Of a stretch of 64,000 nt of DNA, positions 29,679-46,629 are shown one piece after another; the first letter of the stretch is position 1; each line of letters starts with the position of its first letter. The position numbers and the translations under genes are program-made. The notes under the pieces were generated by a model. That model ran no database searches, had not been told where the DNA came from, and saw only the letters and a program-made list of their open reading frames with translations. Source of the DNA: an uncultured Candidatus Saccharibacteria bacterium (lineage in GTDB: Bacteria; Patescibacteriota; Minisyncoccia; Phycocordibacterales; PALSA-1337); contig CAYOER010000002.1 in the NCBI GenBank assembly GCA_964403205.1, forward strand, positions 4,259-68,258, given 5' to 3'.

Positions 29679-29679
29679 A

Positions 29680-30757: not shown

Positions 30758-30759
30758 AT

Positions 30760-31862: not shown

Positions 31863-31875
31863 GATACTGTCCTCA

Positions 31876-32418: not shown

Positions 32419-32467
32419 AGCCTTTATTTAAATCTTATCGCATCTTTCTTCTCATTACTAATATCAA

Positions 32468-33058
32468 CTACAGTTTTTTGAATTTGATAAAATCTATATA
32501 TATCAGTGCTAAATTTTCAAGATGTTTATAAACTCTATTCAAATCCTTTATCGGATAAATATTTTTCAATATATGTGGTATATTTCTTTCAATAGACCAC
32601 TCATAAATCCCAATACTTCCCAAGGTATCTAATCCACCTAGTTCATAAAATACAGTCTTTCTTTCCCGTCTTTTTTTACCATTAAAATCTTCAGTCTCTT
32701 CTAGTGGATGTTTTACGATATTATTTGCGATTTTTATTATTTCAATTATATCTGGTAACTCTTTATCTCTATAATCCTGTAATTGTCGTGAATTATTTTT
32801 TGGCTGAAAATACTCTGATAATCTTTGAGATGATTCTAGACATGTCCGTATAAGAGTGTAAAAGCCGAAGCAATAGGAATAGCAATATTCTGCATAACTA
32901 CCCATATCTCCAATCTTGAAACCATCCTCTAGATTCTTCTCAAGACTTCTCACTTGAATTTCAGCTAGATAAAAATATCTTCTAGTCGTTTCGGCAAGGT
33001 GATGAATACTCTCATCTGAAAGCCTATCAATAAAATTTGAGTAATTATTTAATTCCAT
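32468..33058 (-). CDS. Hypothetical protein (196 aa)
   Basis: ORF only. Confidence 0.25.
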   Translation of the reverse strand: MELNNYSNFIDRLSDESIHHLAETTRRYFYLAEIQVRSLEKNLEDGFKIGDMGSYAEYCYSYCFGFYTLIRTCLESSQRLSEYFQPKNNSRQLQDYRDKELPDIIEIIKIANNIVKHPLEETEDFNGKKRRERKTVFYELGGLDTLGSIGIYEWSIERNIPHILKNIYPIKDLNRVYKHLENLALIYIDFIKFKKL

Positions 33059-33144
33059 ATTTCTACTATATAATCATATATTATTCAATCACCTATGTAT
33101 TAAAAGAAATTTTAGAATTTGATTAGGATTTTTTTAATAACAAA

Positions 33145-34188: not shown

Positions 34189-34215
34189 CCATTAAAAATA
34201 AAATTCATTTCTTTA

Positions 34216-34569
34216 TTATATATCATTATTAGATTGTTTTTCTTCTATTCTCTTACCAAACATAAGAAATAGGCCAGTAGAAATCACAATCACAAAACTA
34301 AAAATACCGTAATTCTTGAAATTATTTAACAATTCTTTACCTACTGGAATGTAGTATGGGTCACCATATTCAACACATTCTGTATATTCATCAAACCTTC
34401 CAGAAGAAGCCTCTTCTAAACACACATCTTTTCTAACTACATATCCATTAGTTGAGATTTTTGGTAGCATTTTCAATGTAGAAACTAGAAATAGTATAGC
34501 CCAGATTATTAGCCAGTAAATGAATATTCTTAGTGGGTATTCTTTTGAGGTTTGTGGTAGAAATCTCAT
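34216..34569 (-). CDS. Small membrane protein (2 TM)
   Basis: Hydrophobic helices only. Confidence 0.3.
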   Translation of the reverse strand: MRFLPQTSKEYPLRIFIYWLIIWAILFLVSTLKMLPKISTNGYVVRKDVCLEEASSGRFDEYTECVEYGDPYYIPVGKELLNNFKNYGIFSFVIVISTGLFLMFGKRIEEKQSNNDI

Positions 34570-34573
34570 ATAC

Positions 34574-36874
34574 TTAGAAAATTAGTGGTGTCCACTCAGA
34601 CCAATCACTATTTTTGACTTTATCCCAGTTATATTCCTGTAAATTATTAATTAGAAGCTGATTACCTTTTTTCACTATTATTCCACCGAATATATCTTTT
34701 CTTTCTTGATCTCTAATATATTGCTGTAGTCTTTCTGCTTTTTCTCTAGTAATAGTCAAACCATCAGCATCACTTTGATCCTTGGTCTCAAAAATACCTA
34801 GCTTTCCATTATTAAACTGTACTATATAATCTGGATAGAAGGTGTAAATCTCATTATCTAATAAATATTTAATACCAAAATAATCATTTTTATTTTTTCC
34901 ATTTTTCCACCACCATTCAATCTTGTCTCCTTTTTCCTCAACAAAGTTTTCAAAAGCTTTTTCTGGCTCAGAACGATCTTTTTCTAAATAACAAGGTTTC
35001 ATTACATATTTAGGGACTCTTTCTACCTTTTCACTTACATTCTCATTATAATATTCGCTTTTGGGTATTTCAAAAGTATAGAACCGCTCTCCTTCAGCTG
35101 ATCTTTTCTTAACTTCTATGTCTTTAATCTTTTTATACTCATCGACAGAATCAGATATTATCTTTTTAAAATGATTTTGATTATCATCATTTATAATAAT
35201 ACTTTGTATGTATACATTTTGCCTTTTCAAATTAAAACCTAAATATTGCTCAAACCACTGATAAATAACGCTAGATATAATAGGTGTTGATCTCTTTATA
35301 TTACTAAATGAGCCTAGATTTTCTTTTAGAAAGGAATAATATTTATTTTCTATCTCATCAGAAGATGCTGATAGCTTTGCAAAATCATCAGCTTTAATTT
35401 CACCTTTGAGTAAATCAAAATCTTTAGTCTCAATGCCAGTATCTGCCATTATTTTTTGACTATATCTATCCATATCTAGAGATACGCCAACTTTCTCTAC
35501 TAACTTTTTATTATCATTTATTTTTTCTCCAGAAATTCCAAAATATTCATTAGCTTTTATCACGAATGTATCATAAAAATTTGCTTTTATATCACCATAG
35601 TCTGCTCTAGTTTTAAAATATGAAGGAAGTTTAATAGATTTATAAGTATCTATTCTTTTTGCAGGTAATCTATTTATAATATTTAACTTATATTCGTCTG
35701 GTTTTACAGTAATACTTTCAACATTAGAATATATATATCCTGTATTTAGCTTTTCATTATCATAATGCTTTCTTTCTGGCATTCTAAGTATTCTTCCAAC
35801 AATTTGTATTTCAAAAGTCTCACTTGATGACTCTCGAAGCTTTATTAAAATATGAGCTCTTGGACAATCCCAACCTGTATCAATAGCTTGTTTAAAGATA
35901 AGAAAATCTGTTTTATTATTTAAATCAATAATGCCATCAATATTTTCTGTCTTCTTGTCAGATAACCATATAGCCAACTTACCATTTGCTACTGTAATAT
36001 CATTTTTAGATAAAAATACCTGTATTGAGTCTAATTTTGCCTCACCTGCATCTGAATTGGGTATCTGTATCAATGCCAGAGGATTTATGTCAGACCCCAT
36101 TTTTTCAAATAGTTTCTTTAATTCGTTTCTCTTATTAAGAGCAGTCATCAATACTAAATCTTGAGAATCAGTTTCATCTTTTGAAATTTCATTTATTCCA
36201 TCATTAATAATTAACTCTTTTTTTATCATCCCTTGCTCAATTACATCATTTGCATTCACCTTAACATTTACTTCAACCCTAGCCCCGCTATCGGTTTTTT
36301 TAGGTGTCGCACTCATTTCAATAACAACTTCTGCACTAATTATTTCTCTGATTTCTTTTGTTCTATCTGCAGTATGACCAATATGACTTTCATCAATTAT
36401 CAATATTATTTTTCTTTTTTTATTAGTCTCAGCAATCAATTCTCTGAAATTAACTTTCTCTCCATCTTTCATTAAGATATTTTTCCACTCCTTTGTTTCT
36501 CCATCCTTACTTCTTAATTTCTCCCAGTTTGCCACAACAACCTCATTTCTATTTATTATCACTCTACTTCCACCAAACTCTTCTTCGACTAAAGAAACCC
36601 TAGGTGACCCACCAAAAATACTTTCTAAACTCTTTTTGCTTTGTATATGAAGTTCTCCCTTACCAATAGATAGCCAGATAAAGCACAGATCGTCCTTATT
36701 TCTTTCTTTTATCAATTCCTCAATAAATTTAGCAATTACTACAGTTTTTCCTGATCCCGTCGGGGATTGGAAGACTATGACTTCTCCCTTACCCTGTCTG
36801 TCTAAAAAGTGGCTTGTATTAAAAACAAGATCATTTAATGCTATTTCTTGGTATTTTTTTAAATTAATATTCAT
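34574..36874 (-). CDS. res: Type III restriction enzyme Res subunit (SF2 helicase-like ATPase plus C-terminal endonuclease region)
   Basis: QSPTGSGKTVV (motif I), LIIDESH (motif II). Overlaps the mod gene by 11 nt. Confidence 0.7.
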   Translation of the reverse strand: MNINLKKYQEIALNDLVFNTSHFLDRQGKGEVIVFQSPTGSGKTVVIAKFIEELIKERNKDDLCFIWLSIGKGELHIQSKKSLESIFGGSPRVSLVEEEFGGSRVIINRNEVVVANWEKLRSKDGETKEWKNILMKDGEKVNFRELIAETNKKRKIILIIDESHIGHTADRTKEIREIISAEVVIEMSATPKKTDSGARVEVNVKVNANDVIEQGMIKKELIINDGINEISKDETDSQDLVLMTALNKRNELKKLFEKMGSDINPLALIQIPNSDAGEAKLDSIQVFLSKNDITVANGKLAIWLSDKKTENIDGIIDLNNKTDFLIFKQAIDTGWDCPRAHILIKLRESSSETFEIQIVGRILRMPERKHYDNEKLNTGYIYSNVESITVKPDEYKLNIINRLPAKRIDTYKSIKLPSYFKTRADYGDIKANFYDTFVIKANEYFGISGEKINDNKKLVEKVGVSLDMDRYSQKIMADTGIETKDFDLLKGEIKADDFAKLSASSDEIENKYYSFLKENLGSFSNIKRSTPIISSVIYQWFEQYLGFNLKRQNVYIQSIIINDDNQNHFKKIISDSVDEYKKIKDIEVKKRSAEGERFYTFEIPKSEYYNENVSEKVERVPKYVMKPCYLEKDRSEPEKAFENFVEEKGDKIEWWWKNGKNKNDYFGIKYLLDNEIYTFYPDYIVQFNNGKLGIFETKDQSDADGLTITREKAERLQQYIRDQERKDIFGGIIVKKGNQLLINNLQEYNWDKVKNSDWSEWTPLIF

Positions 36875-38666
36875 GGATTTCTTTATATATATCTAATATT
36901 TTTTGTGGTATTGGCTCTAATCTAACCTCCTTCCAATCTTCAAAGTCAGACTCATTTAATCCCAGCGAATCTAGAGTAAAACAATATAGAATCTTTTCCC
37001 CCTCCATCTTATCTAGTTCCTTTTTTAGTGCAGGTAACTCTTTCTGACTAAGAAAGTAGTATACTGCCATAATTTTTTTACCTTGTTTGAATATCTTATA
37101 TGCAGATTTATTTCTTATTTCTTCATATATTCCTTCTCTTATACATAGCATTTCAGTACACTCTTCGGTAATTCTGATTTTCATTTCATCTCTGTTGTAA
37201 CTCTTTGGAATTAATATGGTTTTATAATACTTTAAATTTCCACCAATACCTTTTATCACCTTTCCTTTATTATTTTTATAACCCCTTATCACACGCTTAA
37301 TACGCTCATTTGTTACATCTTCACAAATATTATTTTCATTATTCGTACAAAGAATAAATTGACGATTTCCACCATCTAATTTGTTTAATTCCATAACAGC
37401 ATGACCTGTCGTGCCAGAACCAGCGAAAAAGTCTAGTATTATTGAGTCTCTTTTAGATGTTATTTTCAATATATCCTCTAAAAGGTATATTGATTTAGGA
37501 TAGTCGAAGATTTTATTACCGAGTATATCTCTGATTAGATTTGATCCATTAAATTCTGAAAAGTATTTTTTATTAGTCCAAACATTTTTGTATATTTGTT
37601 GTTCATAAAATTTTCTAAAAAGCTGATAACGACCATCAAGATGTTCTACAACAAATTCTTTATTTTCCTTATTTTTTTCTAAAAATGTATCTGGTAAATT
37701 TATCCACGAAAATTCTCTGCCATTATTAGATGTTGGTAATAATTTTATTGAGTCAGATGATGGTGATAGAGAAAACCTTTCATTCTTTTTGTTATAGTAA
37801 ATTGGATAATAGAAATCTGGTTTGTTTATTCTTAGTGTCTCTGTTCGGCAACGCATATATGGCTCTAATCTATATCTTTTTCCATCATTATCTTTCATAT
37901 CAAAGGATGCCATTACTTCTTCATCAATTGCCACACTATTAAATTCAGCAAGACTTGAATTTTTCGAGTAGACAAGCATATACTCACTGTTGGCGGAAAA
38001 AAACTTTGTAAAGTTTCTACCTTTAGGATTATGCAAAACTGTCACTAGACCCAATCTATTTTCCTCGCCAAAATATTCATCAAATAGTAAACCAAGAGTA
38101 AAAAGTTCGTTGTGATCTATTGCACAGATAAAATATCCATTATCTTTCAACAAACTTTTTGCAAGATTTAGCCTATTTTTTATAAAAGTAATAAACTTAC
38201 TATGTCTGTAACCATCATCCTTATCAATATAGTCATTGTTATATCTCCATGTAGTAGAACCCGTGTTATATGGCGGATCTATATATATCACATCAATTTT
38301 ACCAGCATGTGTATAGTTCAAAACAGAGAGCGAATGGTAATTATCTCCTTCAATTAAAATATTCACTAGTTTACTTTCATCAGTAATTATTTCTCTGCTT
38401 TTTATTTCTTTCAGAACAGGAATATTTGTCTTACACAATTCAACTACATCCTCTGGTTTATCTTCCCAGACGAGTCCGTATTTCTTGTGTTTACTGAGAC
38501 GATCAACCTCATCTATGAGTTGATCTTTTGTCCAATTATTATATTTTTCACTAACCTTTTTGGTAGATGATTCTTGTTTTGATGGTTTTTGAGACATAGA
38601 GGGATGGTTGCTATGTTGCTGGCAGGAAGCACAGAACCCCGTGCCAGCCGGACCTTTCGATCCCAT
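36864..38666 (-). CDS. mod: Type III restriction-modification Mod subunit (beta-class N6-adenine methyltransferase); the first ~24 codons are probably over-extension
   Basis: DVIYIDPPYNTGS (motif IV) precedes FFAGSGTTGHAV (motif I). Immediately upstream of res. Confidence 0.75.
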   Translation of the reverse strand: MGSKGPAGTGFCASCQQHSNHPSMSQKPSKQESSTKKVSEKYNNWTKDQLIDEVDRLSKHKKYGLVWEDKPEDVVELCKTNIPVLKEIKSREIITDESKLVNILIEGDNYHSLSVLNYTHAGKIDVIYIDPPYNTGSTTWRYNNDYIDKDDGYRHSKFITFIKNRLNLAKSLLKDNGYFICAIDHNELFTLGLLFDEYFGEENRLGLVTVLHNPKGRNFTKFFSANSEYMLVYSKNSSLAEFNSVAIDEEVMASFDMKDNDGKRYRLEPYMRCRTETLRINKPDFYYPIYYNKKNERFSLSPSSDSIKLLPTSNNGREFSWINLPDTFLEKNKENKEFVVEHLDGRYQLFRKFYEQQIYKNVWTNKKYFSEFNGSNLIRDILGNKIFDYPKSIYLLEDILKITSKRDSIILDFFAGSGTTGHAVMELNKLDGGNRQFILCTNNENNICEDVTNERIKRVIRGYKNNKGKVIKGIGGNLKYYKTILIPKSYNRDEMKIRITEECTEMLCIREGIYEEIRNKSAYKIFKQGKKIMAVYYFLSQKELPALKKELDKMEGEKILYCFTLDSLGLNESDFEDWKEVRLEPIPQKILDIYKEIHEY

Positions 38667-38893
38667 ACCAGTTTCCTGATATGACCATCCCTGATGAGCT
38701 GAACGCGGGGTTCAATATCAAGGATGGATTTCTATGCCATACCTCGCAGAAAAACTACGAGGGTTAGGCACGTATTTTATTTATAATGTTTTTACTTCAT
38801 AATAATTATGAATATCATCATAATATCGCCTTTTTGATATTTTTGCACGCAAGTGATTAATGGGTATAATATCGATATGAATTTAGTCATTAA

Positions 38894-39211
38894 TTGTCCA
38901 GTAACATGAGTGAACTACTCATAACAATCATTAGTGGTGTTATTGTTGCAATTATTGTTGCTTGGTTTGGAATAGGAGGTACAAAACATGTAACCATTCA
39001 TGGATCTCCAGTTCGTAAGACTGGTAAATGGATAATTTTCTTTTCTATAATAGCTATCTTTGGAGGACTTGCATGGGCTGGACATTATTCACTACCTCAA
39101 GGTGGTTTAGATTTTAGTAAGCATGGTACAGTTTATGGAATAGCCTTAGCTAGTTTTGGTCTTTTAGCTCTTATTGTCGGAAAGATTGTTGCGTGGTTTC
39201 AAAAGTCATAA
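38894..39211 (+). CDS. Small membrane protein (3 TM)
   Basis: Hydrophobic segments only. Confidence 0.3.
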   Translation: MSSNMSELLITIISGVIVAIIVAWFGIGGTKHVTIHGSPVRKTGKWIIFFSIIAIFGGLAWAGHYSLPQGGLDFSKHGTVYGIALASFGLLALIVGKIVAWFQKS

Positions 39212-39222
39212 TTCATAACCAT

Positions 39223-39849
39223 TTAATTAAAGTTAAGCATAATCTGACGATAATTCATTGCCAATACTCGTGGATCATTAATAAATCTATTAATTACTTC
39301 TAAATCAGCAGATAAAACCGCAATTTTATTTTTACTATCTGTGAGATCATCAACGGTAACATATATCGAAATATCACCCATTTGAATAACTGGATTTTTA
39401 TGATTAATATGTTTCAGAATCTTGATCTTATCTGCTTTTACTTCTCCCATACTATTTATCAATGGCATAATCTCCTTCAAGACATCTTGATAGTTTTCCC
39501 ATTTGTGATATCCCATATCTCGGAATAATTGAAATACCTCAGTTAAAATATGAGGCGTAACAAAAAATCTATTCCACTCATTTTTAATTTTGATTAATTC
39601 CAAAAAACGTAGAATCATTTCAAAATCTGGTATGTTTGCCGAATTCTTCTTACTTATTCTTGTCTCAATAAAACCATCAATAAGTGTTTTAATCACACAC
39701 GCGTCAATAATTATACCCTGTCTTATAAACGGGCTAATTTCCTTATCAAAATTAAAACCATCTGAACTTAAATCGAGAAGCACTTTTTTATTTATTATTT
39801 TCAGTTGAATCTTCTTGTTTTGAAACTGTATATTTTTGTGGAGGCACAC
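39223..39849 (-). CDS. Hypothetical protein (208 aa)
   Basis: ORF only. Confidence 0.25.
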   Translation of the reverse strand: MCLHKNIQFQNKKIQLKIINKKVLLDLSSDGFNFDKEISPFIRQGIIIDACVIKTLIDGFIETRISKKNSANIPDFEMILRFLELIKIKNEWNRFFVTPHILTEVFQLFRDMGYHKWENYQDVLKEIMPLINSMGEVKADKIKILKHINHKNPVIQMGDISIYVTVDDLTDSKNKIAVLSADLEVINRFINDPRVLAMNYRQIMLNFN

Positions 39850-40120
39850 CTTCTGCAGATAATTTTTTTATTGTTACAGTGTTTTCAATTAGATTTACTG
39901 AGGCAAGAAAGCGAGTAGGCGAACTACTACCAAGGGACTCAAAAAAACTACAAACAACATCCCATTTTTGAGATTCTGTAGTTGGACTTCCATTAGTAGG
40001 TTTTAATTCTTCTACAGAGAATTTGAGAATACCAAGATTACCGTGTATATGTTCAAACACGGAACGTGCTAATTCAATTGCCCTAATTGAAGCTGATACT
40101 GTGGAAGGTTTTGTAGTCAT
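39788..40120 (-). CDS. Hypothetical protein (110 aa)
   Basis: ORF only. Overlaps the previous gene by 62 nt in another frame. Confidence 0.2.
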   Translation of the reverse strand: MTTKPSTVSASIRAIELARSVFEHIHGNLGILKFSVEELKPTNGSPTTESQKWDVVCSFFESLGSSSPTRFLASVNLIENTVTIKKLSAEGVPPQKYTVSKQEDSTENNK

Positions 40121-40391
40121 AATTATAATTTAAAGATAATAATTATCTTGTAAAGATAACACTATCATACCATACTTCATTCAATCAAGTCGTCTTTATT
40201 ACATAATTATATGTAGTTTAAAGTAACATCTTTTGTTTACTGTGACTTTCTATAGTGTACATCCTACACAAATACTATAAAATCCATAAAAAGCATCTAA
40301 ACGCTCTTACTATACCCTACCTATACGTTCTAACCTCGTTCAACATTCGGAGCAATTGACAAACTTAATAAAATATGCTATCATTAAAAAA

Positions 40392-40410
40392 TAGCAGTTT
40401 TTTGACATAT
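40392..40410 (+). promoter_or_regulatory. Conserved promoter module tagcagttttttgacatat (copy 1 of 3)
   Basis: Near-identical 17-19-mers at 46092-46110 and 47482-47500, each upstream of a plus-strand gene, containing a TTGACA -35 hexamer. Two TGGTTGCA direct repeats follow at about 40423 and 40468. Confidence 0.4.
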
Positions 40411-40515
40411 TACCCACAAATTGGTTGCATCTTTTAGATTCTAATTGCACTGGAATTTTGAAGATGTAACCAATGTCTGGTTGCACACAAACAACAAATT
40501 AGGAGAACAAACAAA

Positions 40516-40995
40516 ATGTTCGTCGCTAAAAAATACTTAGAAACCGGTAATTACGTTGAAGTGGCAGGTCGTATCTTCCAGGAAAGCCATTGGCGTGAAG
40601 CCATTCTCTACTTCCTACACGGTATGTGGTCAGCCAATCCAGAAGTCACCAACAAATCATCAATCACCTTTGCTGGTGTAACAATGAGGTTGGATGTAGG
40701 CACAAAAAAATACTGGTGCTTCGTTCGACCAATGATGTCCACTTCCCTTGACTCAGAATCAAGTAACCCTCAGATTGAGCTTCATGATGGCGACACACTT
40801 GAGGTTCGTGATGACTATAACGACGTCGAGATGGGCATGATGCGTTTCGTTAAGAATGATGACATAGGCTGTTTAACAATCCGTTTCTATTACAATGGTT
40901 CGGAAAGCTCGTTGTCATTACACAAGACTTCGAAACGTGGTGAGTATCTTACAAGTGGTGAAAACTTGGGATACCTGCCACCTCGAAGATATTAG
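40516..40995 (+). CDS. Hypothetical protein (159 aa) in the GC-rich segment, divergent from the PurA-like operon
   Basis: AGGAGA RBS 8 nt upstream. GC about 45%. Confidence 0.3.
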   Translation: MFVAKKYLETGNYVEVAGRIFQESHWREAILYFLHGMWSANPEVTNKSSITFAGVTMRLDVGTKKYWCFVRPMMSTSLDSESSNPQIELHDGDTLEVRDDYNDVEMGMMRFVKNDDIGCLTIRFYYNGSESSLSLHKTSKRGEYLTSGENLGYLPPRRY

Positions 40996-41241
40996 GGTCG
41001 CCTCAAGATCCAAAAGGTATGCTGACTACCTTCTCATGTGAGAAATTGTCAGGCAAGTCACAGATATTCTGTGGCTTTTTTTATACCATTGAAACATATG
41101 CAAAGTCCTGATAAACTGTATTTCATTACTAATTACTGACCAGTTCACAGTTCGGAGCTCGTCCAACATGCGGAGCATAAAAAAGAAAAACTCCGTAGGG
41201 ACTGCCCTGCGAAGTTTTGTGAGTAGAACAAGAAGTCAGTA

Positions 41242-42579
41242 TTAACCGATGACTTTTTTGTCTCTAGCACATGCACCATGAGAGGTATATTTTACCTTTG
41301 ATCCAGTGCTTTCCTGAATGAGTCTATAGAGTTGGTCTTCAGTTGAGACCGATTTGATTTCAGGAATAGTTACATTCTCGAGCATTGTGGTTAGTTTCGA
41401 TTGATAGTCCAGATCACGTTTGTAATTTGGAATGAGACGACCAAAGGGTAGACCATCATGAAGATATTGATCAACATAGGGCAGAACTTTTCGATGTTGC
41501 AATATGTCAACATGTGTAACAGCTATTGAGTCAAGTCCTCCATGAGCACGCGTACATTCAGCAGCGTATTTTAGAAGGACTAGATCCAGTGCTCCTGAAC
41601 GAAAGCCGCCTTGCCAATCGTTCAATGTATTGTGTTCCTTAAGGCTCACTCCATACATCCCTACATCTTCAGTTGGAAATGGACCTGAACCATGCCTGGT
41701 CGTATAAGATCGTGTAATGCCTACTGTCTCAACTTCCCCATCAAAACAACATTCCCTGAGCAAGGAACGCGCATTTTCTGTCACGATCCTACTCCATGTC
41801 GTATATGGATGAAAACCCTGCCACTCATCCAGAAGAACTCCTTGTGCTCCCTCAAATACAGGTTTTGAAGATTGAACAAGATCTGCCACTTTCTTTTCGT
41901 TCAGAAATTGGTAATGCTTTGCCATAGATCTGTAGGCATCGACCAATTGATCAAGTTTTTCCGGACTGAAGATATTCAGTGACAATGCAATTGTTCTCGG
42001 GAGTTTTTCACCGAAATCTAATCCCAGCTCCGCAAGTTCATTGCGTTTCCTTTCAGAAATTACTTCGAGCATTGCTTTGAGTTTCCCTGCATTTGTAAGA
42101 TCAATTGCTTTGATGACTTCATCAGGATGATTGACAATATCAAACATTGTCTCACCAATTCCCTTTCCACATGAACCGTGTTTTTTTCCTCCTCGCATCC
42201 ACTCCCTTGCTTGATTTGTTGCAACATGGAATGGCGTAATAACTGGTGCACGTTCATCAATAAAATGACGATCCAGAGCGAAATGCTTGAGTTTAGGTGA
42301 CAAGCATGACGTCTCATGGGCCAGAGCTATCGGGTCCCAGAGCATGTATCTCGAAATAAGGGTTTTGACAAATGGAATGAATGTCCCGCTACCGAACTGT
42401 GAGAAGGTATGATGTAGCCCTTCATCAGTCACTACATTATGCGCTGCTTGAGATCCGCCATTATAACGTACTACAAGATCAGCATTACCGTGACGACAGA
42501 GGAAATCTGTCATAGTTCCCTTACCTTCATCACCAAAACCGAGTCCAACGATAATTCGAGCTTTTTTTGTGTTTTTCAT
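41242..42579 (-). CDS. Adenylosuccinate synthetase (PurA)-family protein, divergent in its substrate loops
   Basis: GLGFGDEGKGTMTDFL (P-loop GDEGKGK), GGSQAAHN (GGHNAGHT), SCGKGIGE (TTGRGIGP), FEGAQGVLLD (FEGAQGTLLD), HGSGPFPTE (VGAGPFPTE), THVDIL (TKLDVLD). The Asp-binding TTGRRRRTGW loop is replaced by QGGFRSG, and C-terminal STGP becomes SHGA. Confidence 0.7.
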   Translation of the reverse strand: MKNTKKARIIVGLGFGDEGKGTMTDFLCRHGNADLVVRYNGGSQAAHNVVTDEGLHHTFSQFGSGTFIPFVKTLISRYMLWDPIALAHETSCLSPKLKHFALDRHFIDERAPVITPFHVATNQAREWMRGGKKHGSCGKGIGETMFDIVNHPDEVIKAIDLTNAGKLKAMLEVISERKRNELAELGLDFGEKLPRTIALSLNIFSPEKLDQLVDAYRSMAKHYQFLNEKKVADLVQSSKPVFEGAQGVLLDEWQGFHPYTTWSRIVTENARSLLRECCFDGEVETVGITRSYTTRHGSGPFPTEDVGMYGVSLKEHNTLNDWQGGFRSGALDLVLLKYAAECTRAHGGLDSIAVTHVDILQHRKVLPYVDQYLHDGLPFGRLIPNYKRDLDYQSKLTTMLENVTIPEIKSVSTEDQLYRLIQESTGSKVKYTSHGACARDKKVIG

Positions 42580-42637
42580 AAAAAGAACCTAGCTACCTCT
42601 AGCTAGGTTCTACACTAAAACCTAATTTTTGTCAAGC

Positions 42638-43690
42638 TTAGTGTGTTGTGCGCTTTCTTCCTTTGCGACTGCCTGAGGATGTTGCGAGTGCGCCACCGGA
42701 AACTTTTCCGGCAACAATCGCTCCACGAGCAACAGGAACAAGTGCTTGTGTCGCAATCAGTGCAGCGGATACACCGCGGATTCCTTTGGACTTCAAAACA
42801 TCAGCCAAGTCATCCTCAGTTTCTCCTGCGAGCCGACCGATAGCAGCCGCCATGGTTGGAACAATGTCCGATGTTTCAGGAACCTCCAGAACGTACTCAG
42901 GATTTTCTCCTGCGTCCGACAGAAGTTTCTGCCACATTTTCTTGATGGACTTGTTCGTGCCATGATTGGTATGTCCAGGTCGAATAACGAAAACGTGATA
43001 CCGTTCGCACGTTTTCCGCACAGACTCGAGCATGGGAATTTCTGACTGAATTCTGTCCCCAAAGACTTCTTTGGCCAGTGCAGGGGTAGTCCCGTGTACT
43101 GCGGGATCTCCACTGTCGTAGAAAGGCTGTTCGTCCTCAATGAGGAAAAAGTAACCCTTTGCGCCGTCACGCTCGAATGATTCGATACGTGTATGATTGG
43201 CGGCAGCATAGAATGCAAGATGATATGCTTCGCCATTGTTTCCACCACCATTACCGGGGATGATCATTTCATTGAGTGCTGTGAGCAACTCTTTGGAGCC
43301 AATTTCAAACTGACTCATTTGGAATGCTGCATCCGGTGGGGTGGCGCGTTCATCGTCGAACATCATGAACATCACATTAGGGTGATCAGAGATCCCCTTT
43401 TCTGTGATCATGTCGATAAGTTTTGGTAACTGCTTTTGCATGTCGTGTGGAACATGCTCCATCGAACCAGTTCCGTCGAGGGCGACAATGATCGGTGTCG
43501 CATCGTTGAAACCGGGAGCGAAGCATGATTCCCTCATCCCGTTCTTGAGCTTGCGTGGGTCGAGGATATCGGCAATATTCCGAACGCCTGTCGACACAGC
43601 AGTCGCTGAACGACTGAAGGTTGAACCAGAACTTGCGAGCCCTCTTACGCCAGCATCGAAGTCCATTGAACTGAAGCCTGAATGTCCCAT
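42638..43690 (-). CDS. von Willebrand factor type A (vWA) domain protein with a C-terminal Ala/Gly-rich basic tail
   Basis: MIDAS motif IIVALDGTGSM. Rossmann-like alternation following it. The probable true start is MGHSGF at 43690. Confidence 0.6.
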   Translation of the reverse strand: MGHSGFSSMDFDAGVRGLASSGSTFSRSATAVSTGVRNIADILDPRKLKNGMRESCFAPGFNDATPIIVALDGTGSMEHVPHDMQKQLPKLIDMITEKGISDHPNVMFMMFDDERATPPDAAFQMSQFEIGSKELLTALNEMIIPGNGGGNNGEAYHLAFYAAANHTRIESFERDGAKGYFFLIEDEQPFYDSGDPAVHGTTPALAKEVFGDRIQSEIPMLESVRKTCERYHVFVIRPGHTNHGTNKSIKKMWQKLLSDAGENPEYVLEVPETSDIVPTMAAAIGRLAGETEDDLADVLKSKGIRGVSAALIATQALVPVARGAIVAGKVSGGALATSSGSRKGRKRTTH

Positions 43691-43720
43691 AGTGATTTTT
43701 TTCTCTTTGTGCCAAACCAC

Positions 43721-43876
43721 TTAGAGTTTGGCTGTTTTTGTTTCTTCCACCTGCTCAACAACAGGTTGAACAGATACGCCGGTTTCTGCGGTTTGTGTCT
43801 CTTTCTTGGTCTCATCCAATGTTTGTGCAACTTTGGAAGGACTTTCCGCCTCTGTCTCATCCACTGGTTTTCCCAT
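43721..43876 (-). CDS. Small acidic protein (51 aa) between the kinase-like and vWA genes
   Basis: Minus-strand MGKPVDETEAESPSKVAQTLDETKKETQTAETGVSVQPVVEQVEETKTAKL. Its stop abuts the vWA ORF. Confidence 0.25.
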   Translation of the reverse strand: MGKPVDETEAESPSKVAQTLDETKKETQTAETGVSVQPVVEQVEETKTAKL

Positions 43877-43907
43877 GATGTATCTTTCTTGTTTTGTTTG
43901 TTGTGGT

Positions 43908-45104
43908 TTAGGTCATTACAAGTTCGACAAATCTCTTTGGGCCGAAAACGGCTTTGGTTATCTGTCGAAATTCTGTGTAAACAGCATCAGCTGTCTGCGG
44001 TCTTCGAACACTTTTTGGTTGAAGACATCTATTGAGCAATTCCCTGATTGGCATTTCAACCGAGTCAGGAATGACTTTTTCTTCGGAACTTCCACCAAGT
44101 ATGTAAACCATGCACCACGCTGACATGTATATGTCAGACGCAGGAGATGGTAACATACTCGTGGATTTTAATTCCTCTGGAAAATAAGCTTGATACCTGT
44201 CATCAGTATAAGGAACTTTCTCACCACTACTTATCTTGCAAGAAGCAGTCCAATCTAGGATCTGTCCAAGATGGTCTTTTGCATGGATGAGAATATGATT
44301 TGGAGTAAGTGCACTGTGCACCACTCCCGAATAGTGAGCGAGGGTCAATCCCTCAAGAACTCTATTCCAAATAAATGTCATGTGTCGAGTAGACACACCA
44401 GAAGGATACGTCTTACGGATTTCCTCTAGTGTATACCACCCTTTATCAAAGCCTGGTTGTATGAGAAAAATATTTACTGTCTTTTTCCCAGAACCGTCAT
44501 CAATTCGAACTGACTCATGAAGTTCCGGCATGCGTAGTAAAAACTTACGTGCAGTTTCCTGACCAGCTGGATTGCTAGCCAAGGATTTTGCCTTCTTTCT
44601 GAAAAGGTCAAATGCTCGTGCCTCCCGCTCCATAAGGTCATTATCCTTGATTGAATGCGGTACCTTGAACAGTGCAGATGAAACAACAGATTTCTTGTCC
44701 TGAATAGTTCCCCTGAAAACACCGCATGTCCCACCGGAATAAATCCGATTGCCGACAGTATAGACATATTTGGGAGAACTAAACTGCACCAAGGCAGGAT
44801 CTTCAGTGGGCTTCGGTGACAATTCTGCTTTCTTGTCCCCGTATATTCCACCTTTGATTTTATCTTGGGCAGTATGCCAAAAAACGTTGAGAAGTCTCTG
44901 GGCCTCAGTTGTGTCCGCCACATCTTTGGGATTACCCATAAGACGGACCTTGTGTATGCACTTTGCCAGCCTACGGAACACTTTCTGGACTGCATGATAG
45001 ACCTTGTCAGAACTACCCTTTTCCAGTCCAAAAATATCTTCTGGATGATTCGCCTTCTTAAGGGCTTCGAGAAGTCTTTGTAATTCAGTCATAATTCCTT
45101 TCAA
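43908..45104 (-). CDS. Protein kinase-like (Ser/Thr kinase fold) protein with an atypical catalytic loop; possible pseudokinase
   Basis: Gly-rich loop SGGTCGVF. Beta3 Lys in SALFKVP. Catalytic-loop equivalent VVHSALTPNHILIH (HRD changed to HSA). ILDWTAS (DFG-like). YFPEE (APE-like). SDIYMSAWCMVYIL (subdomain IX). Confidence 0.5.
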   Translation of the reverse strand: MKGIMTELQRLLEALKKANHPEDIFGLEKGSSDKVYHAVQKVFRRLAKCIHKVRLMGNPKDVADTTEAQRLLNVFWHTAQDKIKGGIYGDKKAELSPKPTEDPALVQFSSPKYVYTVGNRIYSGGTCGVFRGTIQDKKSVVSSALFKVPHSIKDNDLMEREARAFDLFRKKAKSLASNPAGQETARKFLLRMPELHESVRIDDGSGKKTVNIFLIQPGFDKGWYTLEEIRKTYPSGVSTRHMTFIWNRVLEGLTLAHYSGVVHSALTPNHILIHAKDHLGQILDWTASCKISSGEKVPYTDDRYQAYFPEELKSTSMLPSPASDIYMSAWCMVYILGGSSEEKVIPDSVEMPIRELLNRCLQPKSVRRPQTADAVYTEFRQITKAVFGPKRFVELVMT

Positions 45105-45317
45105 AGATCATTGTGTTTAATTACTATAAATCACATTACATTAAAAAATACTTTTGTCAAGCAGTTCGTAATGCAAGGTAAAAATGAAACCAAACTAATC
45201 TAATTACAGTATATAATTAACTCGTATATAGTGTCAATAGTACAATATTACAAAAAACATAATAAATGGCATGTCAATATTTCCCAGACACACCAGTAGG
45301 AATAGTTCCTAAGAAAA

Positions 45318-45962
45318 TCACTTTATAAATGAATATAGAACTGCTGGTCGCATAATCCCCTGCTTCTTTGTTTTGTTTGTATTGATAAGTATACCTTCAG
45401 ACAAAATTTTCTTTCTAAAATTTCTTTTATCAAATTTTTGCTTTAATACTATTTCGTAGATAGTTTGAAGTTCAGTTAATGTAAATTCCTTTTGCAGTAG
45501 ATATTTTGCAATTGAAGTATAAATTATTTTTGATCGCAAGCGGTCAATTGCTGTTGTAAGTATTCTATTATGATCATATCCTAATATAGGTAATTCATCT
45601 ATTGTGCACCACCTTGTTTTAATTTGAGTATTTGTAATTTTACGAGGATCATCTGCAGCAAGAGCTAGATATGCAACTGATACTATTCTTCCCCGAGGAT
45701 CGCGATCTATTTCACTAAAAGTATATAATTGTTCTTTATAAATCTTACGAATTCCAGCCTTATCTTTCAATAGTCTTTCTGCAGCAATTTCTGCTGTCTC
45801 TGTTGGTAAAATAAGTCCACCAATAAGGGCCCACATACCTTTATATTGATTTGAAGAAATTACCTTACCAATGAGGACTGAGAGATTTCCATCAATAATT
45901 CTTAAACAGACAATATCTGTTGCAAGAACTGCATAGCGAATATTATTATCTGTTTTTGACAT
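45318..45962 (-). CDS. NrtR-like regulator: degenerate Nudix domain plus C-terminal winged-helix (start taken at MSKTDNN)
   Basis: GGLILPTETAEIAAERLLKDKAGI (degenerate Nudix box). The C-terminal FTLTELQTIYEIVLKQKFDKRNFRKKI resembles the NrtR DNA-binding domain. Confidence 0.45.
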   Translation of the reverse strand: MSKTDNNIRYAVLATDIVCLRIIDGNLSVLIGKVISSNQYKGMWALIGGLILPTETAEIAAERLLKDKAGIRKIYKEQLYTFSEIDRDPRGRIVSVAYLALAADDPRKITNTQIKTRWCTIDELPILGYDHNRILTTAIDRLRSKIIYTSIAKYLLQKEFTLTELQTIYEIVLKQKFDKRNFRKKILSEGILINTNKTKKQGIMRPAVLYSFIK

Positions 45963-46091
45963 TGTGTATAATATACACGATATATAACAAAAGTAAAGAT
46001 TTAATAGCACACGCCTACTTTGTTGCAATTAGAATGCTAATTCACTGCGAGCAAGTTGACAACTACTATTTTATATGATAGTTTTAAATTA

Positions 46092-46110
46092 GCATAGTTT
46101 TTTGATATTT
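46092..46110 (+). promoter_or_regulatory. Conserved promoter module (copy 2): gcatagttttttgatattt
   Basis: See 40392..40410. Confidence 0.35.
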
Positions 46111-46195
46111 CCTCTTGTTTGACCGTATCTTTTAGATCTTTTACGAGTTTTGAAAGATGCGGTTATAACGAACAACACTCAATTCAAAAGAGAAT

Positions 46196-46531
46196 ATGCC
46201 AACACAAATAACTGAAATCATCCCCGCAGGTAAGAAACGTTTAATTAACACCTTAACCGAAGCAGGTCTGACAACACTGGAAGCTTGTGCGCAAGCTGGA
46301 CCAGAAAAACTCCTAAAGTATAGGGGTTTGGGACACAAAACCTTGATTGCACTGAAAGAGCACTGCTTCAAACGCGGTATCAAATGGTCAGATAGCCATT
46401 CAAGGATTCACAAGCTGTCCATCCACTTCATGAGCCGTTACAAGCTAAGTCCCAAAGATGCAAAACTGGTAGCAACTGCATTTTACTGGGATAACGCATA
46501 TCCGACTTCCCTCCTTCATCCCATGTTTTAA
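46196..46531 (+). CDS. Small helix-hairpin-helix-like protein (111 aa)
   Basis: GKKRLINTLTEAGLTTLEACAQAGPEKLLKYRGLGHKTLIALKEH is an HhH-like pattern. Followed by the conserved terminator module. Confidence 0.3.
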   Translation: MPTQITEIIPAGKKRLINTLTEAGLTTLEACAQAGPEKLLKYRGLGHKTLIALKEHCFKRGIKWSDSHSRIHKLSIHFMSRYKLSPKDAKLVATAFYWDNAYPTSLLHPMF

Positions 46532-46546
46532 GAGACTGGAACAATC

Positions 46547-46598
46547 CCCGCCCGAACAGGAGAAACCCTCCGTTCGCTGGCGGGTTTTTCTTTTTTCT
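46547..46598 (+). terminator. Conserved terminator module, copy 1 of 6 (ccccgcccgaacaggagaaaccctccgttcgctggcgggtttttctttttt)
   Basis: Stem cccgcccgaac/gttcg(ct)ggcggg with a 2-nt bulge, followed by a T-run. The core tcgctggcgggttttt recurs at 47352-47408, 47954-48001, 52835-52884, 53465-53518 and 54229-54265. Confidence 0.6.
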
Positions 46599-46613
46599 TA
46601 ATCCTATAACCAA

Positions 46614-46629
46614 GCCCTGGTCGCGGAGC
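46614..46629 (+). repeat. Direct repeat of the tRNA-Asn 3' end (gccctggtcgcggagc); att-like junction 1
   Basis: 16/16 identical to 21580-21595. Embedded in the 35-bp unit ttcttaatcctataaccaagccctggtcgcggagc, which recurs at 47046-47079 and 47406-47442. Confidence 0.7.

What the first reader, a model, noticed from the sequence alone, without database searches (positions are those of the whole stretch)
41242..42579. PurA-family protein with a rewired aspartate-binding loop and C-terminal guanine-binding motif
Alignment by eye to E. coli PurA shows conservation of the P-loop (GDEGKGK), the His41 region, TTGRGIGP (here SCGKGIGE), FEGAQG.LLD and VGAGPFPTE. Replaced are the R303-R305 loop that binds L-aspartate and the STGP motif (here SHGA). 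The genome has no other purine-biosynthesis context here, so this is unlikely to be the housekeeping purA.
Basis: partly seen in the sequence, partly recalled or inferred. Interest (0 to 1): 0.6.

Follow-up and report, generated by a model that had tools for sequence, protein, structure and literature searches.

The report
PurA-like enzyme paired with vWA partner
This gene is not the housekeeping AMP-synthesis enzyme PurA but an uncharacterised relative that has lost its aspartate pocket and almost always sits beside a vWA-fold partner protein, on mobile elements and in hundreds of large phages, often next to NAD+/ADP-ribose genes, so it probably makes something other than adenylosuccinate.

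Summary
ORF 41242-42579 (-) is an intact 445-aa PurA-fold protein (Pfam PF00709, E 1.6e-61), far below every curated PurA and PurZ cut-off.

Three independent alignments agree. The GTP/Mg2+ and catalytic residues (D13, K16, H41, Q224, D333) are kept. The aspartate loop is rebuilt: R303 deleted, R305->F, T300->W, T301->Q. The IMP-phosphate clamp is altered: N38->Q, T129->C, R143 lost. These changes are hallmarks of a whole subfamily found in at least 592 bacterial species.

The new result is context. The gene ends a conserved cassette:
- an NrtR-type Nudix-wHTH regulator;
- a J-domain pseudokinase, whose catalytic Asp is Ala family-wide;
- a vWA/MIDAS protein with a conserved N-terminal Met-Gly tail;
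- the PurA-like enzyme.

The vWA/PurA-like pair recurs in 76/80 bacterial and 77/80 viral loci, including Bxz1-type mycobacteriophages, and on plasmids. The only recurring neighbours are NAD+/ADP-ribose genes. Here the cassette is cargo of a ~25-kb element integrated at tRNA-Asn.

I infer GTP-driven activation of a 6-oxopurine nucleotide, coupled to a non-aspartate amine. No description was found in the searchable literature.

The parts
41242..42579 (-). PurA-fold enzyme (445 aa). It is the catalytic subunit and the last gene of the cassette.
   Evidence: Pfam PF00709, E 1.6e-61. Below the PurA and PurZ curated cut-offs. Active-site table from alignments with E. coli PurA.
42638..43690 (-). 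vWA/MIDAS-fold partner protein (350 aa counted from the ATG at 43690; the mechanical ORF call starts at a GTG at 43720). It has a conserved N-terminal Met-Gly tail (MGHSGFS...) and a D-G-T-G-S MIDAS-like motif.
   Evidence: No Pfam, NCBIfam or PADLOC hit. PHROG 2971. AF2 model pLDDT 83.8. Foldseek top hits are integrin beta I-like and SpaC vWFA domains. Found next to a PurA-like gene in 76/80 bacterial and 77/80 viral loci. MG start in 83/88 and 135/148 homologues.
43908..45092 (-). J-domain plus protein-kinase-fold protein (394 aa), predicted to be a pseudokinase. Its catalytic loop reads H-S-A-L-T-P-N-H. The J-domain HPD motif is degenerate (HKV) in this copy.
   Evidence: Weak Pfam Pkinase hit. 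DnaJ Pfam domain in relatives. AF2 pLDDT 92 with protein-kinase fold hits. In 91 relatives the HRD Asp position is Ala in 83 and never Asp, Asn->His in 84, and the DFG Asp is lost in 27.
45318..45961 (-). NrtR-type regulator: a Nudix domain with a degenerate Nudix box (RLLKDKAGI) plus a C-terminal winged helix. The ATG at 45961 is the probable start; the mechanical ORF call extends to a TTG at 46028.
   Evidence: Pfam NrtR_WHD 78.4 bits, AraR_C and NUDIX. Sequence read. A homologous gene lies upstream or divergent in about 33-37 of 80 bacterial loci.
45964..45978 (.). 15-nt inverted repeat with 7-nt complementary arms around a central T (GTGTATA T TATACAC), 3 nt upstream of the NrtR-like start codon. 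It is a candidate operator.
   Evidence: Only exact occurrence in the window. Sequence. Function is inferred.
45208..45237 (-). Sigma-70-like promoter (TTGACA-18-TATACT) ahead of the pseudokinase gene.
   Evidence: 11 of 12 consensus matches. This is a consensus match only.
42584..42611 (-). 12-bp perfect hairpin with a GAGG loop, followed by TTTT and the ATG of the PurA-like gene. It is a possible attenuator or translational control element between the vWA and PurA-like genes.
   Evidence: Function is not tested.
41194..41211 (-). Terminator-like hairpin followed by a T-rich tract, about 30 nt after the PurA-like stop codon. It marks the end of the operon.
21521..46629 (.). Roughly 25-kb integrated element that carries the cassette as distal cargo. 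It runs from tRNA-Asn (21521-21594) to a repeat of the tRNA's 3' 17 nt at 46613-46629 (a second, degenerate copy lies at 47424-47440). It holds a serine recombinase, DNA methyltransferases, an AAA_25 ATPase, an FtsK-like translocase and type III R-M genes.
   Evidence: GC is 0.39-0.47 around the cassette against about 0.32 elsewhere.

Best explanation
The ORF encodes the catalytic subunit of a conserved, horizontally mobile module. In transcription order the module is: (NrtR-type Nudix-wHTH repressor) -> J-domain pseudokinase -> vWA/MIDAS protein with a conserved N-terminal Met-Gly tail -> PurA-fold enzyme.

Shown:
- The enzyme keeps every residue PurA uses to bind GTP-Mg2+ and to phosphorylate O6 of a 6-oxopurine nucleotide.
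- It has lost the residues that hold L-aspartate.
- It has lost Arg143, which in PurA reaches in from the second subunit of the dimer.
- It is almost never found without the vWA partner.

Inferred:
- It still forms a 6-phosphoryl-purine-nucleotide intermediate from GTP and an IMP-like nucleotide.
- It passes C6 to an amine that is not free aspartate. The product is therefore not adenylosuccinate, and no PurB-type lyase is needed.
- The vWA partner completes, feeds or gates the active site. Its conserved, flexible N-terminal Gly tail is the leading candidate for this.
- The J-domain pseudokinase is a non-catalytic, Hsp70-recruiting scaffold or sensor. It is dispensable in many phage versions.
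- Where the NrtR-type regulator is present, expression is switched on by ADP-ribose or a related nucleotide.

Biologically I commit to a role in the phage-host contest over NAD+/ADP-ribose and purine-nucleotide pools. I read the module as a pool-restoring or pool-remodelling device carried by large lytic phages and mobile elements, rather than a suicide toxin.
For: Enzyme:
- D13, K16, H41, Q224, D333 and S414 are invariant, and T239 is invariant in 119 bacterial relatives and present in 70 of 73 viral relatives.
- Family-wide hallmarks are H at 273, an aromatic residue at 300, Q at 301, deletion of R303, a hydrophobic residue at 305, N38->Q, and R143 not conserved.

Pairing:
- The vWA gene lies directly upstream in 76/80 species loci. 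The PurA-like gene lies directly downstream of the vWA gene in 77/80 viral loci.
- The pair occurs in Bixzunavirus, Rhizobium and Vibrio phages and on plasmids.

Partner:
- vWA fold.
- N-terminal motif MG[GSY][GST]x[WYF][SDN]xxxY in 135/148 representatives at 50% identity, and in the phage copies.

Pseudokinase: no Asp at the HRD position in any of 91 relatives.

NAD/ADPr link:
- NrtR-like regulator in about 40% of bacterial loci.
- ADP-ribosylglycohydrolase beside that regulator in L018, L026, L045 and L067. It is also the most frequent flanking Pfam family.
- NADAR, Nampt-like, NadE, PncA-like and NDT-like genes lie within 6 kb in 9 of 61 viral lineages.
- PRTase plus cytidylyltransferase in Rhizobium phage TM30.

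Mobility: tRNA-Asn island, local GC shift, adjacent type III R-M, an integrase next to the module in L006.

Presence in at least 559 viral contigs, mostly large genomes, argues for a function useful to a replicating phage.
Against: - No substrate, product or interaction has been measured. The chemistry is inferred from conserved residues alone.
- The NAD/ADPr association is partial: about 40% of bacterial loci and 15% of viral lineages. In phages it could simply reflect clustering of auxiliary metabolic genes.
- A covariation test between the vWA N-terminus and the rebuilt loop found nothing, though it was underpowered.
- This copy's J-domain lacks the HPD motif (HKV), so Hsp70 recruitment may not operate here.
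- Location next to an R-M system on a mobile element would also fit an anti-phage defence role.
Confidence: 0.45

Rival explanations
1. It is an anti-phage abortive-infection or defence effector. On infection the vWA/pseudokinase sensor releases the PurA-like enzyme. The enzyme then drains GTP and IMP or makes a toxic N6-modified nucleotide that stops phage replication.
For: The cassette lies beside a type III R-M system on an integrated element. It has a patchy cross-phylum distribution, is plasmid-borne, and sits next to an integrase in one locus. The kinase-like partner weakly resembles defence kinases such as MkoA, PD-T4-6 and Mad6. Nudix-HTH regulators and vWA chaperones are described in predicted conflict systems (PMC9503650).
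Against: There is no PADLOC hit for the enzyme or the vWA protein. The module occurs in hundreds of large lytic phage genomes among NAD+ salvage genes, which is unusual for a suicide effector. The kinase-like protein lacks its catalytic Asp.
Confidence: 0.2
2. It is a one-step purine aminase. It converts IMP (or ITP/dIMP) directly to the adenine nucleotide using ammonia or another small amine. This would give phages and reduced-genome bacteria an aspartate- and PurB-independent route to AMP. It could, for example, supply ATP for NAD+ resynthesis or reverse defensive adenine deamination.
For: The catalytic machinery is retained while the Asp-carboxylate binders are lost. No lyase gene is nearby. 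The closest relatives are in Saccharibacteria and Paceibacterota. NAD+ salvage genes and an IMPDH/GMP-reductase-like gene are neighbours in some phages.
Against: It does not explain the obligate vWA partner with its conserved N-terminal tail, or the pseudokinase. The module is also common in Actinomycetota and Myxococcota, which by general knowledge have complete purine pathways. An aromatic W/F pocket is not what one expects for ammonia.
Confidence: 0.15
3. It is a protein-modifying enzyme. The free alpha-amine of the vWA partner's N-terminal glycine replaces aspartate as the nucleophile, so the partner becomes covalently joined to C6 of a purine nucleotide.
For: PurA's natural nucleophile is an alpha-amine. 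The carboxylate-binding arginines are replaced by W/Q/F. The vWA partner is obligate and carries a conserved Met-Gly start on a lower-confidence, non-helical N-terminal segment. R143, contributed by the dimer partner in PurA, is lost, which suggests a different quaternary partner.
Against: The argument is purely inferential. No covariation signal was found. The tail could equally be a pseudo-substrate plug, a MIDAS ligand or a degron. No precedent is known to me.
Confidence: 0.12
4. It is an ordinary adenylosuccinate synthetase (housekeeping or a spare PurA), as RefSeq annotates its plasmid and phage relatives.
For: Full-length PF00709 match. RefSeq product names and GO terms.
Against: It scores 168.6 against a cut-off of 402 and 151.7 against 395.55 for the PurA equivalogs. 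R303 and R305 are missing in all three alignments, and T301 is Q. It lies on a mobile element without purine genes.
Confidence: 0.03
5. It is a PurZ-type enzyme for 2-aminoadenine (Z-base) DNA, as the label '2-aminooxy adenylosuccinate synthetase' on phage homologues suggests.
For: PHROG 1211 carries that label, as do the RefSeq phage records.
Against: The NCBIfam PurZ model scores 51.3 against a cut-off of 300. PurZ still uses aspartate (my own knowledge), whereas the aspartate site is lost here. The module is common in bacterial chromosomes. No DatZ, MazZ or DpoZ-like genes were seen beside it in the loci examined.
Confidence: 0.02
6. It is a catalytically dead GTP-binding regulatory protein (a pseudoenzyme).
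For: Substrate pockets are altered. It is partnered with another pseudoenzyme, the pseudokinase.
Against: The catalytic base, acid and phosphate-handling residues (D13, H41, K16, Q224) are invariant across 119 bacterial relatives and in at least 72 of 73 viral relatives (D13 and K16 are gapped in one viral sequence). That is not expected for a dead enzyme.
Confidence: 0.03

Closest known systems
Adenylosuccinate synthetase PurA (EC 6.3.4.4; Pfam PF00709, TIGR00184)
   Same: Same fold over the full length. It keeps the P-loop G-D-x-G-K-G, the catalytic Asp13 and His41, Lys16, Gln224, Thr239, and the guanine determinants Asp333, Ser414 and Gly416.
   Different: About 30% identity, and far below the equivalog cut-offs. 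The aspartate loop is rebuilt (R303 deleted, R305->F, T300->W, T301->Q). Further changes are V273->H, N38->Q and T129->C, and the inter-subunit Arg143 is lost. It is always paired with a vWA protein, has no purine-pathway context, and is mobile.
PurZ / PurZ0 of Z-genome phages (NCBIfam NF038379)
   Same: A phage-borne PurA paralogue with altered substrate use. Phage homologues of this ORF carry the PurZ-derived label.
   Different: It scores 51.3 against a cut-off of 300. PurZ keeps aspartate as the amine donor and works with DatZ, MazZ and PurB (my own knowledge). Here the aspartate site is gone and the partners are a vWA protein and a pseudokinase.
TerY-P triad (vWA TerY + Ser/Thr kinase + PP2C phosphatase)
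   Same: A vWA/MIDAS protein encoded next to a kinase-fold protein in a mobile, conflict-type three-gene unit.
   Different: There is no PP2C; a PurA-like enzyme takes the third place. The kinase-fold protein lacks the catalytic Asp and carries a J domain. No PADLOC model matched the vWA protein.
ARG-centred ADP-ribose systems with Nudix-HTH or WYL regulators and vWA chaperones (predicted in PMC9503650, section 3.8)
   Same: An NrtR-type Nudix-HTH regulator plus a vWA protein. In L018, L026, L045 and L067 an ADP-ribosylglycohydrolase sits beside the regulator of this very cassette.
   Different: That paper does not mention a PurA-like enzyme or a J-domain pseudokinase. ARG is absent from this window and from most loci.
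Phage NAD+ reconstitution pathways (NARP1/2/3)
   Same: Carried by phages. In some viral lineages the pair lies among Nampt-like, NadE, PncA-like and PRTase-like genes. In bacteria it lies under an NrtR-type regulator, as NAD+ salvage genes do (general knowledge).
   Different: No NARP enzyme has a PurA fold (abstract; my own knowledge). The link here is by gene neighbourhood only.

Membership tests
Adenylosuccinate synthetase superfamily (Pfam PF00709) | Full-length match above the Pfam gathering score | tested here: met
   208.8 bits against a cut-off of 27; residues 9-436 of the protein against positions 1-410 of the 416-position profile.
PurA, EC 6.3.4.4 (NCBIfam equivalogs TIGR00184, NF002223) | Score at or above the curated equivalog cut-off | tested here: not met
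   151.7 against 395.55, and 168.6 against 402.
PurA, EC 6.3.4.4 | GTP/Mg2+ site and catalytic residues (G12-D13-x-G-K16-G, H41, Q224, D333) | tested here: met
   All are present in the query and invariant in 119 relatives.
PurA, EC 6.3.4.4 | L-aspartate site (T300/T301, R303, R305) | tested here: not met
   W322, Q323, a deletion and F326 occupy these positions. The result is identical in the HMMER, BLASTP and MAFFT alignments.
PurA, EC 6.3.4.4 | IMP 5'-phosphate clamp (N38, T129, T239, and R143 from the partner subunit) | tested here: not met
   Only T239 is kept. N38->Q, T129->C, and the R143 position is variable.
PurA, EC 6.3.4.4 | Formation of adenylosuccinate from IMP, GTP and Asp | not testable with these tools
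   Needs an enzyme assay.
PurZ (NCBIfam NF038379) | Score at or above the curated cut-off | tested here: not met
   51.3 against 300.
PurZ | Companion genes for Z-DNA (DatZ, MazZ, DpoZ) | tested here: not met
   None found among the window ORFs scanned with Pfam or NCBIfam. The neighbours are a vWA protein, a pseudokinase and a Nudix regulator.
TerY-P triad | vWA-fold protein with a MIDAS motif | tested here: met
   AF2 model plus Foldseek hits to vWA/integrin I-like domains; conserved D-x-T-G-S motif.
TerY-P triad | Catalytically competent Ser/Thr kinase | tested here: not met
   The HRD Asp is replaced by Ala in 83/91 relatives and is never Asp. The catalytic-loop Asn is His in 84/91.
TerY-P triad | PP2C phosphatase gene in the unit | tested here: not met
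   No recurring neighbour beyond the four cassette genes in 80 loci.
NrtR family regulators | N-terminal Nudix domain plus C-terminal NrtR-type winged helix | tested here: met
   PF21906 at 78.4 bits and PF00293 at 36.7 bits.
NrtR family regulators | ADP-ribose-responsive DNA binding | not testable with these tools
   Only a candidate 15-bp palindromic operator and a degenerate Nudix box (sequence) are available.
J-domain co-chaperones | HPD tripeptide | tested here: not met
   The window copy reads HKV. In 91 relatives H occurs in 66, P in 55 and D in 82. The family as a whole qualifies, but this copy does not.
ARG-centred ADPr systems (PMC9503650) | ADP-ribosylglycohydrolase as the core gene | tested here: not met
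   Absent from the window. Present beside the cassette in only 4 confirmed loci (L018, L026, L045, L067) of 80.
Known anti-phage systems (PADLOC-DB 2.0) | Match of the enzyme or the vWA protein to a system model | tested here: not met
   No hit for either protein. Only generic kinase-domain hits for the pseudokinase.

The most novel reading that the evidence does not exclude
The PurA-like enzyme uses the free alpha-amine of its vWA partner's N-terminal glycine in place of aspartate. It thereby welds a purine nucleotide through C6 onto the protein's N-terminus, giving an N6-peptidyl-AMP. This would be a previously unknown post-translational modification. The tagged vWA protein would then act in the phage-host contest over NAD+/ADP-ribose.
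Probability: 0.12. Interest if true: 0.95.

Novelty: new variant of a known kind. Interest (0 to 1): 0.72.

Why it matters
PurA chemistry is the activation of a purine C6 carbonyl by GTP, followed by attack of an amine. So far it is known with aspartate only: PurA itself, PurZ, and (from my own memory, not checked) ToyG-type enzymes.

This subfamily keeps the activating half and has swapped the amine pocket. It is abundant:
- at least 592 bacterial species;
- at least 559 viral contigs;
- about 1,600 clusters at 50% identity for its partner protein;
- about 200 sequenced mycobacteriophages that are easy to handle in the laboratory.

Databases nonetheless label it as plain adenylosuccinate synthetase or as PurZ.

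Working out its product would add a new reaction to nucleotide metabolism. It would explain a module that large phages keep next to their NAD+ salvage genes. It would also give a function to an unannotated vWA family and to a J-domain pseudokinase family. If the partner's N-terminal glycine is the nucleophile, the result is a new kind of protein modification.

Tried and rejected
- Ten full-text literature searches, plus reading two comparative-genomics papers from one group and one kinase survey. None describes a PurA-like/vWA/pseudokinase module. Subscription-only papers are not covered.
- PADLOC: no match for the enzyme or the vWA protein.
- Canonical PurA and PurZ: rejected on curated cut-offs and active-site residues.
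- Active Ser/Thr kinase signalling, as in TerY-P: rejected because the catalytic Asp is absent family-wide.
- I tested whether the proteins upstream of the vWA gene in Rhizobium phage TM30 and Vibrio phage TDDLMA are kinase-like. They are not (hhalign probability below 1%). One of them is a HIRAN-domain protein and another is a NADAR protein.
- Mutual-information (APC-corrected) covariation between the vWA N-terminal motif and the PurA-like sequence in 145 pairs. There was no signal linking the tail to the rebuilt loop. The test is underpowered and confounded by phylogeny.
- Search for a second copy of the 15-bp palindrome at the pseudokinase promoter: none within 3 mismatches.
- The organism's name could not be recovered. 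The exact genome is not among the GTDB representatives returned.
- Whether the genome has a canonical purA or purB elsewhere could not be checked.
Full report
**1. The observation**

The ORF listing gives one intact ORF at 41242..42579 on the minus strand, 445 aa. It matches Pfam Adenylsucc_synt over its whole length (208.8 bits, E 1.6e-61). It is 30% identical to E. coli PurA.

There is one slip: the P-loop is GDEGKGT, not GDEGKGK.

HMMER against PDB chains, BLASTP against E. coli PurA fetched from MG1655 and a MAFFT alignment with 119 relatives all align the aspartate loop the same way:
- T300->W
- T301->Q
- R303 deleted
- R304->G
- R305->F
- R306 kept

**2. What kind of PurA relative**

Curated models reject membership. 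The PurA equivalogs score 168.6 against a cut-off of 402, and 151.7 against 395.55. PurZ scores 51.3 against 300.

A database search found a distinct subfamily at 40-52% identity. A scan of one genome per GTDB species found at least 592 species carrying it. They include Saccharibacteria and Paceibacterota, Actinomycetota, Myxococcota, Chloroflexota and Planctomycetota.

Conservation across 119 members, in E. coli numbering:

| Role | Positions | State in the subfamily |
|---|---|---|
| Phosphoryl transfer, acid/base catalysis | G12, D13, K16, G17, H41, Q224, T239 | invariant |
| Guanine recognition | D333, S414, G416 | invariant or nearly so |
| IMP 5'-phosphate clamp | N38->Q, T129->C, R143 | fixed substitutions; R143 not conserved |
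| Aspartate loop | T300->W, T301->Q, R303 deleted, R305->F | fixed substitutions |
| Other pocket positions | V273->H, S240->W, D231->W | fixed substitutions |

The same hallmarks hold in 73 more divergent viral copies: H at 273 in 73/73, an aromatic residue at 300 in 68/73, Q at 301 in 69/73, the R303 deletion in 73/73, and a hydrophobic residue at 305 in 69/73.

My reading is as follows. The half-reaction that uses GTP to activate a 6-oxopurine nucleotide is under selection. The aspartate half has been replaced by a different and equally conserved pocket.

**3. The surroundings**

The gene is the last of four co-directional genes.

(a) 45318..45961 encodes an NrtR-type regulator. It hits NrtR_WHD at 78.4 bits plus NUDIX. 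Its Nudix box is degenerate (RLLKDKAGI; sequence). A 15-nt inverted repeat with 7-nt arms lies 3 nt before its start codon.

(b) 43908..45092 encodes a 394-aa protein with an N-terminal J domain and a protein-kinase fold.
- The AF2 model has pLDDT 92, and Foldseek hits are protein kinases.
- In 91 relatives the HRD Asp position is Ala in 83 and never Asp. The catalytic-loop Asn is His in 84. The DFG Asp is lost in 27. I therefore predict a pseudokinase.
- The J-domain HPD motif is present in most relatives but reads HKV in this copy.

(c) 42638..43690 encodes a 350-aa protein with no Pfam, NCBIfam or PADLOC hit.
- The AF2 model (pLDDT 83.8) matches integrin beta I-like and SpaC vWFA domains.
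- It carries a conserved D-x-T-G-S MIDAS-like motif.

(d) The PurA-like gene follows. A terminator-like hairpin lies about 30 nt after its stop codon.

**4. Conservation of the cassette**

In 80 species loci, the vWA gene lies directly upstream of the PurA-like gene in 76. The pseudokinase is present in about 67, and an NrtR-like gene in 33-37. No other neighbour recurs.

The same order occurs elsewhere:
- in about 200 Bixzunavirus mycobacteriophages (Cali gp251, gp252 and gp254);
- in Rhizobium and Vibrio phages;
- on plasmids of Allorhizobium, Rhodococcus and Tsukamurella, with NUDIX genes beside it.

Seeding a search of IMG/VR with the vWA protein found 559 viral contigs, many from 100-500-kb genomes. 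In the 80 loci kept, 77 have the PurA-like gene directly downstream and 36 have the pseudokinase. In 17 viral lineages a helical protein of about 119 aa takes the pseudokinase's place.

An exhaustive profile search found about 1,600 clusters at 50% identity for the vWA partner at E <= 1e-10.

The obligate unit is therefore vWA plus PurA-like. The pseudokinase and the regulator are accessories.

**5. A conserved N-terminal glycine**

The vWA partner begins with Met-Gly:
- in 83 of 88 close homologues;
- in 135 of 148 distant cluster representatives;
- in 77 of 80 viral loci;
- in the phage copies. In Cali the ATG preceding GSGAW follows a strong AAGGAG Shine-Dalgarno sequence.

The motif is MG[GSY][GST]x[WYF][SDN]xxxY. 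It lies on a non-helical, lower-confidence segment of the model.

With Gly in second position, the initiator Met is normally removed (general knowledge). That would leave a free glycine alpha-amine.

PurA's natural nucleophile is the alpha-amine of aspartate, and here the arginines that hold aspartate's carboxylates are gone. In addition, Arg143 is not conserved in this subfamily. In PurA that residue is donated by the second subunit of the homodimer.

These facts make the partner's tail a candidate either to enter the active site as the substrate or to complete or plug it. This is inference. A covariation test gave no support, but it was underpowered.

**6. The only recurring functional theme is NAD+/ADP-ribose**

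- NrtR-type regulators sense ADP-ribose and usually control NAD+ genes (literature cited in PMC9503650).
- Among 120 genes flanking the bacterial cassettes, neighbours are highly diverse (137 Pfam families). The most frequent is ADP-ribosylglycohydrolase.
- That enzyme is confirmed beside the regulator in L018, L026, L045 and L067. L018 also has a Nudix hydrolase.
- NADase_transloc and NAPRTase also appear among the flanking genes.
- In viral loci the pair lies within 6 kb of Nampt-like, NadE, PncA-like, NADAR, nucleoside-deoxyribosyltransferase-like or NrtR-like genes in 9 of 61 dereplicated lineages.
- In one lineage it sits between NadE and a PRTase-like gene.
- Vibrio phage TDDLMA has a NADAR gene two genes upstream of the vWA gene. 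Rhizobium phage TM30 has a PRTase-like gene and a cytidylyltransferase upstream.

The association is partial but consistent across bacteria, plasmids and phages.

**7. Local setting**

The window is a low-GC (about 0.32) bacterial chromosome with diverged housekeeping genes: a short ProRS, a fused def-fmt gene, PriA, MurA, MreBC and a group-3-type NiFe hydrogenase. No purine gene is present.

By its closest relatives, the organism is probably a Patescibacteria (CPR) member. This is an inference.

tRNA-Asn lies at 21521-21594. It is followed by a large serine recombinase, methyltransferases, an AAA_25 ATPase, an FtsK-like protein and a type III R-M system. The 3' 17 nt of the tRNA recur at 46613 and, in degenerate form, at 47424.

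The cassette is therefore distal cargo of a roughly 25-kb integrated element. Its GC content (0.39-0.47) stands out from the rest of the window.

**8. Mechanism**

Shown:
- catalytic and GTP-binding residues are retained;
- the aspartate site and the inter-subunit Arg are lost;
- the vWA partner is obligate and has a conserved N-terminal Gly;
- the kinase-fold protein lacks its catalytic Asp;
- the module is mobile;
- it has NAD/ADPr neighbours.

Inferred:
- The enzyme makes a 6-phosphoryl-purine nucleotide from GTP and an IMP-like substrate, then transfers C6 to a non-aspartate amine.
- The vWA partner delivers or gates that step.
- The NrtR-like protein turns the operon on when ADP-ribose rises.
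- The module serves the contest over NAD+ and purine-nucleotide pools.

Hundreds of large lytic phages carry the module, some among their NAD+ salvage genes. I therefore favour a pool-restoring or pool-remodelling role over a suicide effector. The adjacent R-M system keeps a defence role alive as the main rival.

**9. Comparison and novelty**

The module works like PurA in its first half-reaction but fails the PurA and PurZ membership tests. It resembles the TerY-P triad and the predicted ARG-centred ADPr systems in using a vWA protein with a regulator. However, it lacks their defining enzymes.

Public annotation calls it 'adenylosuccinate synthetase' or '2-aminooxy adenylosuccinate synthetase'. 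The evidence here contradicts both labels.

Ten full-text searches and three targeted readings found no description of the module. I rate it a new variant of a known kind of enzyme, embedded in an undescribed module. Interest is 0.72.

Noticed in passing
window 21521-21603, 46583-46638, 47394-47449: The 3' end of tRNA-Asn (AGCCCTGGTCGCGGAGC) is repeated at 46613 and, with one mismatch, at 47424. These repeats lie within three copies of a 47-nt repeat. This looks like att sites of one or two integrative elements inserted in tandem at tRNA-Asn, next to a large serine recombinase gene (21555-23288).
   Followed up: partly
window 38650-38770 (-): A full-length LOOT RNA match (Rfam RF03000, 84.4 bits against a gathering score of 46.4) lies immediately upstream of the type III methyltransferase gene (36864-38666). 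It overlaps the first 17 nt of the ORF as called.
   Followed up: no
window 42584-42611 (-): A perfect 12-bp hairpin whose 4-nt loop is GAGG. It is followed by TTTT and then the ATG of the PurA-like gene. No other Shine-Dalgarno-like sequence precedes the start. It could be an attenuator, or a structure that presents the ribosome-binding site.
   Followed up: no
window 43721-43876 (-): A 51-codon acidic ORF (MGKPVDETEAESPSK...) fills the 217-nt gap between the pseudokinase and vWA genes. The gap is only about 30 nt in relatives such as L003, so the ORF is not conserved. Mycobacteriophage Cali has an unrelated 88-aa gene (gp253) between its vWA and PurA-like genes.
   Followed up: partly
window 45964-45978: A 15-nt inverted repeat with 7-nt complementary arms around a central T (GTGTATATTATACAC) lies 3 nt upstream of the NrtR-like start codon. 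It is a candidate auto-regulatory operator. No second copy is present at the pseudokinase promoter.
   Followed up: partly
window 46540-46594 / 47947-48001, and 48348-48464 / 50051-50167: Two further pairs of direct repeats (55 nt at 89% identity; 117 nt at 90%) lie at and beyond the element's end. Each 55-nt copy contains a terminator-like hairpin and begins at the 3' end of a small ORF (46196-46531; 47535-47948), overlapping its stop codon, with no Pfam match.
   Followed up: no
window 19323-20672 (+): A single 449-aa ORF fuses peptide deformylase (residues 2-162) with methionyl-tRNA formyltransferase (residues 176-423).
   Followed up: no
window 9345-10589 (-): The prolyl-tRNA synthetase is only 414 aa, and the bacterial-type models match it in two separate stretches. 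This fits a reduced-genome lineage.
   Followed up: no
viral loci, e.g. L110:5640-5999, L127:5639-5992, L141:5552-5932: In 17 viral lineages that lack the J-domain pseudokinase, a conserved, apparently helical protein of about 119 aa with no Pfam match lies immediately upstream of the vWA gene. It may be a functional replacement.
   Followed up: partly
L008 (Mycobacterium phage Cali), L090, L091; plasmid loci L172, L173: Public records label the subfamily '2-aminooxy adenylosuccinate synthetase' (phage RefSeq and PHROG 1211) or 'adenylosuccinate synthetase' with a purine-biosynthesis GO term (plasmids). The active-site analysis supports neither label.
   Followed up: yes
L018:570-3514: In a Saccharibacteria genome, a Nudix hydrolase, an ADP-ribosylglycohydrolase and the NrtR-like regulator form a divergent arm opposite the pseudokinase-vWA-PurA-like operon. 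This is the fullest ADP-ribose-linked version of the cassette that I saw.
   Followed up: partly
window 39223-40995: Three ORFs without any family match (39223-39849 -, 39788-40120 -, 40516-40995 +) lie between the type III R-M genes and the cassette. They travel with the PurA-like gene on the other two contigs that carry it (L001, L002).
   Followed up: no
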